A stretch of 64,000 nt of DNA from Octopus vulgaris (GCA_951406725.2 OX597818.1:138694001-138758000); one strand, 5' to 3'. Positions 9,618-63,203 are shown, counted from the stretch's first letter. The notes: generated by a model from the letters alone, not told the origin. Made by a program: numbers and translations.

Positions 9618-9668
9618 ATATAATTATAATAGAATAATTACTATGAAGCATTGTGCAGAATATATTGT

Positions 9669-10644
9669 TTGTATAAAGGATTGTGGGTAAGGCCAAAACA
9701 ATGCAAATTAAATGCAAGGTAAATCACAAGAAAACAAATATGTGAATTAATGTAGACTTACCTTGTAGTTAATATTTTGGGGTTATGACCCCATTTTCAA
9801 GATATTGTTGAATGTTGCCAATGTGCATGTGTATGAGCATGTGTGAAGTGGACATGCACAGAAGGGTGTTGCTATAGCAACCAGCTAGTTTCCTGTAGCT
9901 TTCTTCTAATGTTGATCTCAGGTTTCTTTTGGTGTATGAGGATTGCCTCAGAGATTCTCAGGTTGGCCCTGTTCTGCTGTGTTGCCTTGATGTGCACTGT
10001 GAATTCCGAGGTCTGGCATTTCCATAGATGTTTTTTTCACGGAAGTGTCTGCTTGCACGTGTTCCTTAATGTGTACATGTGTTTCCGATGTAGGATGCAC
10101 CACATTTGCCACAGATGATCTCATATACAACGTATGTCCTCTGGTACAATTCAAGGTCATTGATGGGGCAGTTTGACAATGTGCACTCCTCGGAGTAGCG
10201 AGAGGTGTTGTTCTTGGACAGAGCTTTTCTCAGGGAAGGGCCGGTGTGCACTATCTGTATGTCGAGTCCTTCTCTGCAGACTGCGTGTTGTATTGCTGCA
10301 GTAGTTCAGTTGTCAAAGTGTGGTAGCTTTAGGAAGTACATGCCGGACTTGGGAGTATGATGGTTCTTCCAGGGTCTATTGACCTTGATGTTCTTCAGGC
10401 ACTGTTGTTTAGCTAAAGATGGTGGGTAGCCATTCAGCATTAGGTATTTGAAGAACTGTTTGGTGTTGACCACGAATGGTTACCCACCATGCACATCAGT
10501 AACATTTGTCAATTTCTTGAAAACGGGGTCATAACCCTGAAATATTGAATACAAGTTAAGTCTACATGAATTCACATATTTGTTTTCTTGTGATTTACCT
10601 TGCATTTACTTTGCATTTTTTTGGCCTTACCCACAATCCTTTAT

Positions 10645-10648
<4 letters not shown>
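9669..10648 (-). mobile_element. Penelope-like retroelement relic (RT thumb + GIY-YIG endonuclease) with ~160-bp inverted termini
   Basis: Frameshifted - strand peptides KYLMLNGYPPS, YFLKLPHF, YVVYEIICGKCGASYIGNT, IKEH; arms 9669-9829 and 10488-10648 are reverse complements. Confidence 0.85.
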
Positions 10649-10692
<44 letters not shown>

Positions 10693-37969: not shown

Positions 37970-38309
37970 GTGTGGACAAATTACTACAAGCACACTTGTT
38001 GCATGTGGCTGAAAATCAACATGACGGTAGTGCATATAGATCATCAGTTAGCAGGGAACGATCTCGTTTCCTTACATGCCTCCATCCATAGATGATATTC
38101 AATTATCTGTTTATATATAATTAAAGAAAAAAAGTTGAAGTGAGAAAAAAAAAAATATACGGGCAAAAAAAAAAAAAGAATTAAAAAAAATCTGGAAGGA
38201 AGTCACCGTGTTCTTGTGTTCCCTTGGAGTTTGCAACTATGTTATGTTACTTAAGGTGGAAATAACAGGTGGAAACTGTACATAATTTGTTACCGGCATG
38301 TACCACCAG
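37970..38309 (+). other. Candidate exon ending ATG TAC CAC CAG (MYHQ)
   Basis: Donor CAG|GTAAGA at 38310; possible acceptor TTTTGTTCAG| at 37969. Confidence 0.35.
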
Positions 38310-45200: not shown

Positions 45201-46184
45201 ATTCCTTTTGTATCTTCTGCTGTTTGTGTGTGCAGGTGTATGTATGTAATGTATGTATTGTCATACTGACCTATCAGCAACAATGGAATTGAAACAGGAA
45301 TTTGAACAAGTCATGTTGCAATTTCGAACAATCCAATTCCGACTCTTCTCTTGTTTGAGTTGTTGGTTATTACCTTCCGTTCTTTCTTTTTATTAACTTT
45401 TTTTTTTTTTTTTTTAATATTTTAAAACAAAATTTGACTTCTATTGTAACAATTGTGGCATCTTAGACCATCAGCTTGAAAGTTGGTTCTATTTATAATC
45501 TAAATCTAGCATGGTAATTCCTACGGTTGAATGGGTGTACCAGTCAACGATGGGTCCAACCCCACGCATTCCTGGCTGATTATTAATAAAAAAAAAAAAA
45601 AAAGGAAAAGGAAAAAAGAAACAATCTTTGAATCTTGTCTATGTGATGCTGTCAGATCAGAACTTATTAAGTTGTTGTTGGTGTCTTGGCAATTTTGGCA
45701 CAAAGCTTGTAAGTATTATACTATTTTCTGTTATATATGTTTTAGTCGCTTCATTGTTATTACTATTTAGTACTATGTCGGCTCTGACTACACAGAGCCG
45801 CGACCATCCCATTCTTCTTTTTCAACATTGTATATTTAGGTACATATTATCCAATGTGTTCTTCTATTTTTCAATGTATGCCATAACACGAGGCAGACTT
45901 TGTGCTATTTCTGGCATGTTGAACATTCACAAAGAAGCGTTTTTCATTGGTTTCGACTCCATGCAACGTATACCTGTCTACCACATTTATCTGAGTTTGT
46001 CTCTTTTGGTCCTGATGGATCTTAACGTGGGCTCGTTGACTTAATCTTAGAATATATTAGCATTCGTTAGTCGTGTGCATTGTTTCATCTACTGTGTGTC
46101 TTTTGTGTATCTCAGACTGAGAGAGAGAGCACGGGCTGAATGACTGCTAAAGTGTCGGTAGTTATCGAAGCGCTATACATAACA

Positions 46185-51801: not shown

Positions 51802-51965
51802 TAAGGTGGTGCTCTTGCATGGCCACAGTCAATTAACTGAAACAAGTAAAAGAATAAAAGAATATGTGTGTGTGTGGATTTCATTGTTATGAAAATTGTA
51901 AAGTATGATCATAAATTTTGGAACTCGATCTGTAATCTTGCTCTTGCAGAATAAATTCTAACAAT

Positions 51966-52193
51966 TTAACCCTTTAGCATTTAAACCGGCCATATCCGGC
52001 CCAAAGTATTCTGCCTGTTTTATGGTCAGACTGGCCAGATCTGGTCTCTCACACTAACCCTACAATATCGTTTTAAAAATTACAGGTACCTCATCAAAAT
52101 CTCATAGATTCAAGATAATGCATGATTAGTTCAAAACAATTTAGATAAAAAAGGATTAATTTTGGCAGAATAATGCGAACACTAAAGGGTTAA
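51966..52193. mobile_element. piggyBac-type MITE (same family as 60470)
   Basis: TTAA-CCCTTTAG ... CTAAAGGG-TTAA. Confidence 0.9.
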
Positions 52194-58026: not shown

Positions 58027-58760
58027 TAAGTGTATGTATAACAGAGAGGAAGAGAAGGAATAAACAATAAAAGAGTGCATGTGACAGAAAATAATTTGTG
58101 CATTAGAGATTTTATTAAAGTTTCAGAATGGCTTAGTTTGTTAAAATTGGAGAGAGAAAGAAAGAAAGATAGATAGATAGAGACAGAGAGAGAGAGAGAG
58201 AGAGAGAAAGATAAAAGGCTTACATAAAAGATTTTGTTGAATAGCCACAGACTGTTGCGAGTAGAATGTGTGTACATCAGTGTAGTGTGAATGTGTGGGT
58301 GTGTACATAATTATAGCCTTTGCTTAAATGAATATGTTAAAGGTTCTTAAGAATACCGTGTGTGTATGTGTATATATATGCATACATGCACGTGATCACC
58401 TCAGTTTATGTGTGTGTGTCGTTACACGTCCATATAAGTGGCCTACACTTTGACACTGGAGATTCTAATAGATTGTAATTTTAAGCTTATGTGTGTGTAT
58501 ATATATATATGTCTACAGGCAACCATCTGCTTATGTGTACCTGTGTGTAAAAATAATTACACCTTCACATAAGTAATTACACCTTTATCTTGGAGATTCT
58601 AATAGCTGCAGAACTAGGAAGTAAGGTGCATTTGTATGGGTGCATATGTAACTGTGCATACAGTTGCATGCTTAATTACCTGTTTTTATAAGAGATTCTA
58701 ATAGCTTCCGAATGATAAAGTTCATGTGTGTGTGTGTGTGTGTGTGTGTACATGCATACA

Positions 58761-59144
58761 TGGAGGCGCAATGGCCCAGTGGTTAGGGCAGCGGACTCGT
58801 GGTCATATGATCGCGGTTTCGATTCCCAGACCGGGCGTTGTGAGTGTTTATTGAGCAAAAACACCTAAAGCTCCACGAGGCTCCGGTAGGGGATGGTGGT
58901 GATCCCTGCTGTACTCTTTCACCACAACTCTCTCTCTCTTACTTCCTGTTTCTGTTGTACCTGTATTTCAAAGGGCCGGCCTTGTCACTCTCTGTGTCAC
59001 GCTGAATATCCCCGAGAACTACGTTAAGGGTACACGTGTCTGTGGAGTGCTCAGCCACTTACACGTTAATTTCACGAGCAGGATGTTCCGTTGATTTGGA
59101 TCAACCGGAACCCTCGTCGTCGTAACCGACGGAGTGCTTCCCCC
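58761..59144 (+). mobile_element. SINE family B, full length
   Basis: TSD ACATGCATACA. Confidence 0.95.
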
Positions 59145-60469
59145 ACATGCATACACATGATTTCACACACAATTATCACTTTATATAAGAGATTCTAATA
59201 GTCACACAATGAAAAGTTTAAATGTGTTTATGGATATACTTATATGTGTGTACCTAATTACCTTCATTTTACATAAATAAGATCATCTGCGGAACAGGAA
59301 GCAGATGGCATCACCAAAAAGAAATACAACAGGTTCAACTTAGTTCTCCCCTAAATAAACTGTTATCAAGGTATTGAACCTATGCTACATTGAACTATAG
59401 GTGACTTGGCAAGAATTAGCAGTTATCACACAGCGTCAACTAAAACTTTTGAAGCTTTGCAAGGAGAGGTTATAGTATCTATAAATATGTATAGATCATA
59501 GGTCAAAAATTAAGGCCTTGTATTGCATTGTGTCCTTCCTGAGAGGCTCATTACTCTGTTTTATCCAGATTATGAAGTCAGAAAATAAAGGCTATATTAG
59601 TATCACTTTATTTTGTGCTGGTTAGCCTAATGAATGGTATCCAGCTGTAAAAACACAAAACTTCAAGCAAACTGGCCTGACCTGGGATCAGTGAGTAAGG
59701 GAATTTCTTTGCCATTTGCTTAAATTTGCTAAAAGTAGCTGCCAAATAAATTGCTACTCAAACAAATCTTTACTTTCAAGGGTGTTAGGACCACATGTTT
59801 TTGCAATTAAAAAAGTTCTATAACAATATTGCATACTCAATTTAAAGCTTACGTAGTAGAAATGATTAAGGCAGGTAGTTTCATAATGTGGTATATGGCT
59901 ACCATATTAAGAGTTGACTTAATCCTCTCAAAACAGTAACCATTTAGTTTTATCCCAATCAGCAAGTAAAGTAAAATAAAAGAAGACAACAAACAGGGTT
60001 ACAATTTTATGGGTACAAGTTTGAGTTGTAACCATGTGGTTTTGATTAGATGGAAACTGTATGGAAGTTTGTTGAGCCGTTTTTTTTAAAGGCTACTAAA
60101 ATGCAAATGCAGTTAAATGTGTTCACAATTTTCACATCACATCAATGTATTCACATTTTCCTGTTTAGTAGAGCTATTGTTTTTAGCTTTATTTGCATTT
60201 GAGCCGTTCTTTAGAAGACTATTTTCAAATTTCTCAATGCTTCAAATGAACTAAAATGTGTGCCGAGTGTTTGATGTGCAATCCAAACATGTCGCGTTGC
60301 TTTCTTTTATGTCAAAAACTATTAAGTTAGCTTTTCAATAAACTGAGATTGTTAAAATAAGTATCAGACGAAAATACATACCAAGGAACTTTTTTAATCA
60401 AGTACGCCAATGTTACCCTCTTGATTTGAAAGGAAGAAAATTATAGACTCTTTGAATTCAAAGGGTTTA

Positions 60470-60698
60470 TTAACCCTTTAGTGTTCACATTATTCTACCA
60501 AAATTAATGCTTTTTTATCCACATTACCTTGAACTAATCATGCATTATCTTGTAGCTATGAGATTTTGATGAGGTAGCTGTTAATTTTTAAAACGATATT
60601 GTAGGGTTAGTGTGAGAGACCAGATCTGGCCAGTTTGAACATAAAACAGGCAGAATACTTTTGGCCGGATATGGCCGGTTTAAATGTTAAAGGGTTAA
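60470..60698. mobile_element. piggyBac-type MITE, inverted relative to 51966
   Basis: TTAA-CCCTTTA ... TAAAGGG-TTAA; reverse complement of the 51966 copy. Confidence 0.9.
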
Positions 60699-61577
60699 AT
60701 CTATTTATATGGAGAACACAATTATAGATATAAAATGTATATAACAGATGCGATAAAATAAATTGATATCCTCATTATGAAACAAAAGTATTTTTCTAGA
60801 AACTTTGTCACTTTGGGTTTTGGAGAAATGGAGTTGTTTCATTTTTGTTACAATTACATCAAAATTGGGGCATTTTGATGCCAGAGCAATTTGGATGCAG
60901 TCTTTCAGGTCCAATTGATTACTCTGCTTTGTTTTTATATCCCTTAGAGTGGAAAATCCTTGTTTGCAAAGCTAGGTTGTTGGAAAAGGCTTTTTAGTGG
61001 TTGGTACGATCAACTAAAACCCCCAAAATGGCACACCCAGCATGGCCAGAGTTCAATGACTGAAAGTAGTAAAAGAAAGAGAGGAGGAAACAAAAACTAT
61101 TTTCATAAGGTATATTGAATACAGGTATCGTTTTGTGGGTCAGCATTGTTTAGACACATAAGTTGCTGCTCATTATTCTTTGCTTGCATAACAGTTGGCA
61201 GCAGAATCAAGGCAACAGAATTCCTTACCTGTTGAAATATGTGAAGTAGCTTTCATTGTGCTCTTTTGTAGTGAAAGAATGCTACTGTTTGGCACAAATT
61301 CTTCAAGGTACTTAGTGCTTCTCCCGTCTGGAATTCCATATTTTTTTAAACAAGAAACTGACTCAGGCTTTTTATTATTTCTCATCCTGTAGCTTCCATA
61401 AACATTTTAATATACAAAAGCTTTTCCGCCTCTCTGCCCATACAGCCACCCATCTACACACTCATTTACTTAAGTTCACTACATATATTTAAACATAGAA
61501 CTTTTCGAGCACTCACTAACTGTTATGCAAAAACTATCAAAAGTACACGTATTGTCAGATGTTTATATATACATATG

Positions 61578-61948
61578 TAGGTGCAGGCATGAATATGTTG
61601 TTAAGAAGCTCACTTTGCAACCACACAGTTCAGGTTCAATCTCACCATGTGGCACCTTGGGCAAATGTCTTCTACTATGGCTGTAGTCCAACCAATGCCT
61701 TATGAGTGAATTTGGTAGTTGAATGTGTGTGTGTGTGTGTGTGTATGCTTGTGTACCCACCATCGCCACTTAACAACTAGTATGAGTTTTTTTTACATTC
61801 CCTCAACTTAGTGGTTCAGCAAAAAAAAAAAAAACAAGAAAAAACTGACAGAATAAGTATTGAGGTTGATCTGTTCAACCTAAGATCTCTTCAAGACAGT
61901 GCCCCAGCATGGCCACAGTCCAATGACTGAAACAAGTAAAAGGTAAAA
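61578..61948 (+). mobile_element. SINE family A, degenerate, in the hairpin loop
   Basis: GGCACCTTGGGCAAATGTCTTCTACTAT core; TGACTGAAACAAGTAAAA tail. Confidence 0.85.
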
Positions 61949-62537
61949 TAACAATCACATATATATACATATAAACACATACATGCCTCTGTTTCTCTTT
62001 AGGCATACAGGTAAATGTTTATATTATTATACAGATGTTATCTACAAGTCTATTGACAAGTAACACTTAAGTATTTGTATGTGAATAGATATTCTCATTA
62101 TTACGTGCAGTGTGTATGTATAAATGTATAAATAAGTGTATGTCTCAAGTATTCACAAAAGCACTCAGACAATCACCTGTTTCTCTCATATGATAAGTAG
62201 ACTATCTCTAAATATACTTATACCAACGTAATTACTTAAAAATTGCAGGCATCAAAGTGAATAATCAGAATAGTGCACACACATTCTTCCCTTGTGTGTG
62301 TGTGTGTGTACATGCAAATACGTATATGTATTTATGTGAGTTGGTTTGTAAGAATATATAAATGGAAAAAGGTGCTTTTCAAGTGTTTGTGCATAAGAGT
62401 TAGTGAATGCTCAAAAGTTCTATATTTAAATGTACGTAGTGTTCTGTTCGTAAGTAAATGAGTGTGAGGGTGGGTGGCTGTTATGAGTGGAGAGGTGCGA
62501 GAGCTTTTGTATATTAAAATGTTTGTGTAAGCTACAG

Positions 62538-62697
62538 GATGAGAAATAATAAAAAAGCCTGAGTCAGTTTCTTGTTTAAAAAAAATATGGAATTCCAGAC
62601 GGGAGAAGCACTAAGTACCTTGAAGAATTTGTGCCAAACAGAAGCATTCTTTCACTACAAAAGAGCACAATGAAAGCTACTTCACATATTTCAACAG
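62538..62697 (+). other. Candidate 160-nt exon in the right arm of the inverted duplication
   Basis: Strong donor CAG|GTAAGG at 62698; weak acceptor CTACAG| at 62537. Confidence 0.35.
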
Positions 62698-63203
62698 GTA
62701 AGGAATTCTGTTGCCTTGATTCTGCTGCCAACTGTTATGCAAGCAAAGAATAATGAGCAGCAACTTATGTGTCTAAACAATGCTGACCCACAAAATGACA
62801 CCTGTATTCCAATATACCTTATAAAAATAGTTTTGTTTCCCTCCTCTCTTTCTTTTACTAGTTTCAGTCATTGAACTCTGGCCATGCTGGGTATGCCATT
62901 TTGGGGGTTTTAGTTCATCATACCAACACCTAGTATGTATTTTAGTCTGATACTTACTTTATCAATCTCTATTTATTGAAAAGCCAAGTTAATAAATTTT
63001 GACTTAAAAGAAAACAGCTCTACATGCTGAATTGCAAAGCATGCACTTGCATGCATTCTGGTTCATTTGAAGCATTGAGAAATTTGAAAATAGTCTTCAA
63101 AAGAACTGCTCAAATGCAAATGAAACTAAAATGTCATACAAAGTGTTTTAAAACACGACTGTGAGTGTGGAATCAATATAAAAACTAAGCAATTGTCATA
63201 TTA

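What the first reader, a model, noticed from the sequence alone, without database searches (positions are those of the whole stretch)
60181..63131. Old inverted duplication with a near-perfect core: candidate long dsRNA (ADAR or hairpin-siRNA locus)
Seen: about 750 bp of mostly unique sequence is duplicated in inverted orientation around an ~825-bp loop. Identity is strongly graded by eye: ~99% over ~265 bp (61131-61395 vs 62529-62795), roughly 90% next outward, and roughly 75-80% at the outer and inner ends. The left arm is interrupted by ~620 bp (60382-60999) containing a MITE, and an already decayed SINE tail is in both arms, so the duplication is old. Inference: the core has been kept identical, either by arm-to-arm gene conversion or by selection for pairing. 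Established: coleoid cephalopods have very extensive ADAR A-to-I editing that depends on such duplexes, and long hairpin loci yield endo-siRNAs in other animals.
Basis: partly seen in the sequence, partly recalled or inferred. Interest (0 to 1): 0.75.

Follow-up and report, generated by a model that had tools for sequence, protein, structure and literature searches.

The report
Mirror-copied conserved element in octopus intron
Inside a giant intron of the octopus PDZRN3 gene, an old mirror-image duplication contains a 230-letter exon-like element that is conserved across related species, and its two copies stay identical most likely because they keep overwriting each other (gene conversion), so the RNA hairpin they are predicted to form is likely a by-product, although it would cover a possible splice site.

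Summary
The inverted duplication is real, two-copy in the genome, and graded: 84.5% outer, 91.7% middle, 98.9% core, 81.4% inner. It lies in a 375-kb intron of the + strand PDZRN3/4 gene, among alternative first exons, so upstream pre-mRNAs would span both arms. Contigs from other individuals and four other species carry the core. Two bases derived in the window's lineage sit on both arms, which points to ongoing arm-to-arm gene conversion. A sub-block (62499-62725) is about 3% diverged in the most distant species while the next flank is over 20% diverged, so its sequence is likely under purifying selection. It ends 28 nt after a consensus-type splice donor and shows no coding signature; splicing at that donor was not observed. 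Hairpin siRNA is unlikely because molluscs reportedly lack Dicer-2 and siRNA Argonaute. ADAR editing is untested, and this gene region holds 17 comparable potential duplexes. Verdict: a known process (conversion prolonged by selection) at a new locus. The scan noted patchy conversion on other DNA of this genome (unchecked notes).

The parts
60182..60381 (.). Left outer arm, cut off from the rest of the arm by the insertion; 84.5% to 62933-63130
60382..60971 (.). Dispersed-repeat insertion in the left arm only, with short inverted ends (DNA-transposon-like, inferred)
60470..60700 (.). MITE nested in the insertion
   Evidence: 93% to window 51964-52193; inverted ends
61000..61534 (.). Left main arm (middle 91.7%, core 98.9%, inner 81.4%)
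61131..61395 (-). Left near-perfect core (homogenised block)
61201..61422 (-). Mirror copy of the conserved exon-like element; antisense to the host gene
61535..62384 (.). 850-nt spacer holding a SINE (about 61560-61948) and unique sequence
62385..62927 (.). Right main arm
62499..62725 (+). Element conserved across species; exon-like, non-coding (alternative first exon or poison cassette exon of PDZRN3, inferred)
   Evidence: X10: 7 substitutions in 222 nt, then unalignable; no synonymous bias
62529..62795 (+). Right near-perfect core (homogenised block)
62692..62703 (+). Consensus-type 5' splice donor, cut 62697/62698, in the middle of the predicted duplex; use not shown
62844..62990 (+). Decayed SINE that predates the duplication
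62933..63130 (.). Right outer arm
38298..38309 (+). Coding part of an alternative first exon of the host gene (leader MYHQ, followed by GT)
45646..45708 (+). Coding part of an alternative first exon of the host gene (21-residue leader, followed by GT)

Best explanation
An old inverted duplication in the 375-kb intron of PDZRN3 contains a 230-nt element that is conserved across species and is likely a non-coding exon of that gene, and arm-to-arm gene conversion likely keeps the two copies identical around it. Purifying selection on the sense (right) copy would slow divergence there, which keeps the arms similar enough to go on pairing and converting, while the unconstrained ends, one of them cut off by a transposon insertion, dropped out and decayed to 81-85%. 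The antisense (left) copy would be a passenger. Pre-mRNAs from upstream promoters would fold into a 265-bp duplex that ADAR may edit, as a by-product. Shown: anatomy, host gene, two-copy status, presence in other runs, shared derived bases, local conservation. Inferred: conversion as the mechanism (about 0.9), selection on primary sequence (about 0.8), exon identity (about 0.45; enhancer or promoter element otherwise), hairpin without selected function.
For: Host gene: the intron runs from G000:C5:138417859 to 138792572, + strand, with three mapped alternative first exons upstream of the repeat. Conversion: 62755 is G on both arms of the window and in X1, but A in X5 (same organism), X2, X7 and X9; 62586 is T on both arms and in X3, but C in X7, X9 and X10. 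Organism D differs from the window by 7 substitutions in 335 nt while the arm ends differ by 15-19%, so these bases are younger than the duplication. At the paired site 60274/63039, X5 carries the window's two alleles on the opposite arms. Selection: X10 aligns with 7 substitutions in 222 nt (62499-62725), then 7 in 30 in the adjoining loose end and no alignment at 80% over the remaining 125 nt; X2 has 6 in 241 in the core against 18 in 193 at 61479-61671 (P = 0.0025). 62726-62795 is identical between arms but not conserved in X10, so conversion alone does not give the conservation; Fawcett and Innan 2011 (PMC3924837, passages) state that neutral rates are unchanged by conversion, that purifying selection prolongs conversion, and that transposon insertions end it. 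Exon-like: the block brackets an AG at 62536-62537 and a donor at 62697/62698 by about 38 and 28 nt; no in-frame ATG follows the in-frame stop 27 nt before the donor, which would fit the database isoforms that start at MKSRS in 4 species. No G-U bias among arm mismatches (17 on +, 18 on -).
Against: No spliced read or contig at the donor was seen; the one X2 contig runs unspliced through it, and organism E has C at the -1 position. Donor-type motifs of this strength are not rare (5 in 98.5 kb on the + strand; about the chance number by my hand estimate), and the upstream AG lacks a pyrimidine tract (45% C+T). All cross-species data are short-read contigs that collapse the arms, so two arms in species D, E and F are inferred (branch at half depth in X7, 5.3 versus 10.4; the two 73-nt paths in X9 could be alleles), not shown. 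X8 gave no laid contig. Other derived states sit on the right arm only (62551, 62799, 62809, probably 62642). The conservation boundary was picked after seeing the data, so its P value (3e-4) is inflated. Conversion and compensatory selection leave the same pattern in a perfect repeat, so function of the duplex is not excluded.
Confidence: 0.6

Rival explanations
1. The duplex is selected as a splice-site mask: in pre-mRNAs from upstream promoters the left arm pairs with the element and hides its donor (and acceptor), while transcripts that start at the element lack the left arm and splice freely; ADAR editing could loosen the mask.
For: 264 of 265 core positions are predicted to pair across the arms, with the donor in the 153-nt perfect run; the homogenised block covers the whole exon-like segment; at least three upstream first exons and a PDZ exon would give read-through transcripts; both arms persisted through 15-19% divergence of their ends.
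Against: No G-U bias (17 versus 18); conversion under one-copy selection predicts the same pattern; the other three first exons lie in unique sequence without any inverted copy; use of the donor is not shown.
Confidence: 0.14
2. Both copies are functional cis-elements (duplicated enhancer or back-to-back promoters, the left one driving an antisense RNA), each under selection.
For: Head-to-head layout; primary-sequence conservation; an AP-1-type heptamer at 62560 (motif recalled, located); the X3 contigs listed for the arms cover 62403-62629 only.
Against: Separate selection does not explain 70 nt of perfect identity beyond the conserved block or shared new alleles; no strand or start data.
Confidence: 0.12
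3. The repeat is selected as a dedicated ADAR substrate.
For: A host pre-mRNA would span both arms; predicted duplex -477 kcal/mol; intronic editing is abundant in squid (16,738 robust intronic sites; PMC9068888 passages).
Against: The nearest shared coding exon is 36 kb away, so no recoding target; 17 inverted pairs of at least 150 nt and 90% lie in this 724-kb region and 26 in 1.324 Mb, so duplexes are common; a generic substrate would not need conserved primary sequence.
Confidence: 0.08
4. Hairpin-RNA locus producing endogenous siRNAs.
For: Long near-perfect stem predicted.
Against: Dicer-2 and siRNA Argonaute are reported absent from Mollusca (PMC11114477 abstract and passages), and no dedicated endo-siRNA pathway was found in a mollusc survey (PMC12479628 abstract); no third genomic match as a trans target at E up to 10; loop of 1.1 kb between the cores; no Rfam match at gathering score.
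Confidence: 0.02
5. Assembly or polishing artefact, or the long terminal repeats of a foldback transposon.
For: Near-identical cores can be homogenised by polishing; a young multi-copy element forms a 1-kb inverted pair elsewhere.
Against: Independent runs collapse the arms in the same core and carry the window's alleles (X1 at 62755, X3 at 62586); the arms still differ at 3 core columns; two copies genome-wide; no target-site duplication seen at the ends; identity is graded, not uniform.
Confidence: 0.04

Closest known systems
Interlocus gene conversion prolonged by purifying selection, ended by transposon insertion (Fawcett and Innan 2011, PMC3924837, passages seen); arm-to-arm conversion in Y palindromes (Rozen 2003, seen only as a reference-list entry; content recalled)
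   Same: Inverted duplicate with shared derived bases; identity peaks over the constrained segment; the part beyond an insertion has decayed.
   Different: Arms are 0.75 kb, non-coding and intronic, on a large assembled chromosome-scale contig; only one copy is in sense orientation to the host gene.
Alternative internal promoters and first exons of LNX3/4 (PDZRN3/4) genes (Flynn 2011, PMC3162930, passages seen)
   Same: Several short first exons in the intron before the shared exon; the element sits among them with a donor of similar form.
   Different: Exon use is not shown; it has no in-frame start; it alone has an inverted copy.
Intronic inverted-repeat duplexes edited by ADAR in coleoids (Albertin 2022, PMC9068888, passages seen)
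   Same: Long duplex predicted in a pre-mRNA intron.
   Different: Built from two-copy unique sequence with conserved primary sequence, not from dispersed repeats; editing not shown.
Drosophila hairpin RNAs and expressed inverted duplicates (Chen 2011, PMC3176832, abstract seen; hpRNA features recalled)
   Same: Inverted duplicate of non-repetitive DNA able to fold.
   Different: Intronic, long loop, no trans target found, and the processing pathway is reported missing in molluscs.

Membership tests
Inverted duplicate under concerted evolution | Two-copy inverted arms older than their most similar block | tested here: met
Inverted duplicate under concerted evolution | Lineage-derived bases present on both arms | tested here: met
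   62586 and 62755
Inverted duplicate under concerted evolution | Both arms resolved in other species, more alike within than between species | tested here: inconclusive
   contigs collapse the arms; branch at half depth in X7; X9 paths may be alleles
Alternative non-coding exon of PDZRN3 | Sense-strand consensus donor and exon-shaped conservation | tested here: met
   organism E has a weaker -1 base
Alternative non-coding exon of PDZRN3 | Spliced transcript joining 62697 to the shared exon | tested here: inconclusive
   none seen (the next exon lay outside the stretch and 1243 loose ends were not shown); no protein record of such a frame
Protein-coding exon | Synonymous bias and homologous proteins | tested here: not met
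   6 of 6 distinct listed substitutions change the residue in the open frame; no homologue
ADAR substrate | One transcript spans both arms and can pair | tested here: met
   gene structure and fold; predicted, not observed
ADAR substrate | A-to-G clusters in RNA absent from DNA of the same animal | not testable with these tools
   only contigs were served
Hairpin endo-siRNA locus | Dicer-2 and siRNA Argonaute in the lineage | not tested
   not searched in this genome; reported absent in Mollusca
Hairpin endo-siRNA locus | Phased 21-23-nt reads from the stem | not testable with these tools
   no small-RNA reads served
Foldback or long-TIR transposon | Dispersed copies and target-site duplication | tested here: not met
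Recursive splice site | Conserved AG directly before the GT, with a pyrimidine tract | tested here: not met
   AG lost in organism E; tract 55% C+T

The most novel reading that the evidence does not exclude
A promoter-dependent splice switch built by inverted duplication: the antisense copy, kept in register by gene conversion, locks the exon's splice sites in a 265-bp duplex in every pre-mRNA that starts upstream, and only transcripts that begin at the element (or duplexes loosened by ADAR) can use the donor, so that PDZRN3 isoform choice in octopus is set by a self-repairing RNA mask.
Probability: 0.12. Interest if true: 0.72.

Novelty: new member of a known kind. Interest (0 to 1): 0.36.

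Why it matters
As it most likely stands, it is a clear small example of selection on one element keeping a duplicate in concerted evolution, and a warning that a perfect inverted core need not mean selection for double-stranded RNA. It also flags an unannotated conserved element in an octopus PDZRN3 intron. If the mask reading holds, it would link gene conversion, RNA structure and possibly ADAR to isoform choice, with a simple minigene test.

Tried and rejected
Coding exon: the left copy has an open 55-residue frame and net indels keep that frame class in organisms D, E and F (about 1 in 27 if independent), but 6 of 6 listed substitutions are non-synonymous, X3 and X5 contigs are frameshifted, and three protein searches found no homologue (0 of 5 candidates; none; 3 hits, all unrelated repetitive proteins). 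Local RNA structure in the core: none (z 1.74 and -0.42). Rfam: 3 sub-threshold hits, none in the arms. Expression: no RNA holder on record was listed; X1-X3 are only guessed RNA. Editing in contigs: X3 has 0 substitutions over 62529-62629, and change types show no A-to-G excess but are dominated by repeats; contigs drop rare variants, so no verdict. The X1 core contig is not at double depth (5.9 versus 5-10 in flanks) and the left core bin is empty; depth of contigs is not interpretable. Alleles in arm-specific contigs of X1 and X5 often equal the other arm's base (6 of 10 shown sites), but private mutations in the window explain that without conversion, so only the reciprocal site was counted. 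Two leaders (MSWE, MVGSHSALASLK) were not found in the 724 kb. The 1-kb inverted pair on C11 looked like a parallel case but is a uniform, multi-copy element. Literature: a search for inverted exon copies acting as editing partners returned 0 papers; searches listed no title or abstract on this locus or this arrangement; no supplements were read, and editing-site tables of PMC9068888 could bear on the ADAR question.

Full report
Observation. Global alignment gives 84.5% for the outer arms (60182-60381 / 62933-63130), 91.7% for 61000-61130, 98.9% for the core (61131-61395 / 62529-62795; one mismatch and two homopolymer gaps in 267 columns) and 81.4% for the inner part. The gradient is significant (chi-square P = 1e-8; a 153-nt perfect run in 0 of 20000 permutations). 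The spacer is 850 nt. A dispersed repeat with a nested MITE interrupts the left arm and splits a SINE that is already decayed (100 of 153 columns to a young copy), so the order is SINE, duplication, insertion. Core and inner arm have two matches in the genome; the outer arm has only weak extra hits.

Context. Fetching the flanks showed an exon 36 kb downstream that matches proteins named PDZRN3 in Octopus species at 100%. The gene is on the + strand; the intron that holds the window runs from G000:C5:138417859 to 138792572. Database isoforms differ in short leaders; three map into this intron upstream of the repeat, each followed by GT (window 38298-38309, 45646-45708, and C5:138593692). Any pre-mRNA from these promoters would contain both arms, and folding pairs 264 of 265 core positions. 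That is a prediction, not an observation.

Not an artefact. Of 24 runs listed, 8 were laid; 7 of the 8 gave contigs in the core. In X5 one 387-nt contig covers 62514-62902 and arm-specific contigs abut it; X1 and X3 carry the window's own core alleles. The runs are short-read contigs that merge near-identical arms, so they cannot give arm-by-arm sequences of the core.

Conversion. Position 62755 is G on both arms of the window and in X1, and A in X5, X2, X7 and X9. Position 62586 is T on both arms and in X3, and C in X7, X9 and X10. Organism D is about 2% from the window in the core (7 in 335) and its inner contig end matches the left-arm version at 29 of 30 letters (read by eye), whereas the arm ends are 15-19% apart; these two bases therefore arose long after the duplication and were copied across. 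At 60274/63039 X5 has the window's two alleles on the opposite arms. Against this, several derived states are on the right arm only (62551, 62799, 62809, probably 62642), and the presence of two arms in D, E and F is inferred from a half-depth branch in X7 and two 73-nt paths in X9 that might be alleles.

Selection on sequence. X10 aligns over 62499-62725 with 7 substitutions in 222 nt, then continues 342 letters unaligned; its first 30 loose letters differ at 7 places. X2 has 6 substitutions in 241 nt in the core and 18 in 193 nt at 61479-61671, a piece that is partly SINE (P = 0.0025). In X9 and X7 differences cluster at 62480-62497. The stretch 62726-62795 is identical between the window's arms yet not conserved in X10, so the homogenised block and the conserved block differ. 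Fawcett and Innan (PMC3924837, passages) state that conversion does not change the neutral rate, that purifying selection keeps similarity and so prolongs conversion, and that transposon insertions disrupt it; all three fit.

What the element is. It brackets a 160-nt segment between an AG (62536-62537) and a donor (62697/62698) that resembles the donor of the MYHQ exon. It is not coding: 6 of 6 listed substitutions change the residue in the open frame and three protein searches failed. An in-frame stop lies 27 nt before the donor with no ATG after it, so a spliced transcript would start translation at MKSRS, as database isoforms of four species do; this fits but does not prove a non-coding first exon. 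A poison cassette exon or an enhancer remain open. Against an exon: no spliced contig was seen, X2 runs through the donor, E has a weaker -1 base, the acceptor lacks a pyrimidine tract, and such donor motifs occur 5 times in 98.5 kb.

Mismatches between arms show no G-U bias on the transcribed strand (17 versus 18). In 1.324 Mb of genome examined, 26 inverted pairs of at least 150 nt and 90% lie within 5 kb, 17 of them in the 724 kb around this gene, so a long duplex alone is ordinary; squid introns are widely edited (PMC9068888, passages). Among 8 low-copy spaced inverted loci in that sample, this is the only one with over 500 aligned columns that is two-copy genome-wide (2 of the other 7 were checked genome-wide: one multi-copy, one two-copy and 190 nt). 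Hairpin siRNA is unlikely: Dicer-2 and siRNA Argonaute are reported absent from Mollusca (PMC11114477, abstract and passages; PMC12479628, abstract and outline), and no third match exists as a target. I did not search this genome for those genes.

Verdict. Known kind, new locus: a conserved exon-like element caught in an inverted duplicate and kept in two identical copies by conversion (confidence 0.6 for the whole account). The boldest reading not excluded is a conversion-maintained RNA mask over the splice sites (0.12). Other papers were seen as follows: PMC3176832 abstract and outline, PMC3162930 passages, the rest as search listings. Earlier notes of this scan report patchy or exon-biased conversion elsewhere in this genome; none was near this locus and none was checked here.

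Noticed in passing
window 9660-9829 / 10488-10657: Second low-copy inverted pair (89%, 658-nt spacer) flanking short frames at 9948-10305 (-) that by eye resemble a GIY-YIG endonuclease of a Penelope-like element (motif recalled; Pfam found nothing).
   Followed up: partly
G000:C11:40016473-40019713 (L096): 1-kb inverted pair, identical apart from microsatellite indels; a multi-copy element whose copies often stand as close inverted pairs. Its first letters recur in a 155-nt hairpin at C5:138335300.
   Followed up: partly
G000:C11:40101061-40102261 (L105): Genome-wide two-copy inverted pair, 190 nt, 94%, 822-nt spacer: spaced inverted duplicates of unique DNA recur in this genome (8 low-copy loci in 1.324 Mb).
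   Followed up: partly
G000:C5:138593692-138593712: First exon with leader MDFVILK; near-identical leaders occur in limpet, clam and cuttlefish-cluster proteins, so this internal promoter looks ancient in molluscs.
   Followed up: partly
window 60214-60251 / 63061-63098: 38-nt perfect patch in the otherwise 85% outer arms; contigs of X1 and X5 break at it, suggesting a second small conversion tract.
   Followed up: partly
window 58444-59218: Four dispersed copies of a 14-nt core within short degenerate direct repeats (D9, D10).
   Followed up: no
G000:C5:138381389-138381760 and 138455956-138456321: Short-loop near-perfect hairpins of about 370 nt (95-97%), low copy in the sample, in introns of the same gene.
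   Followed up: no
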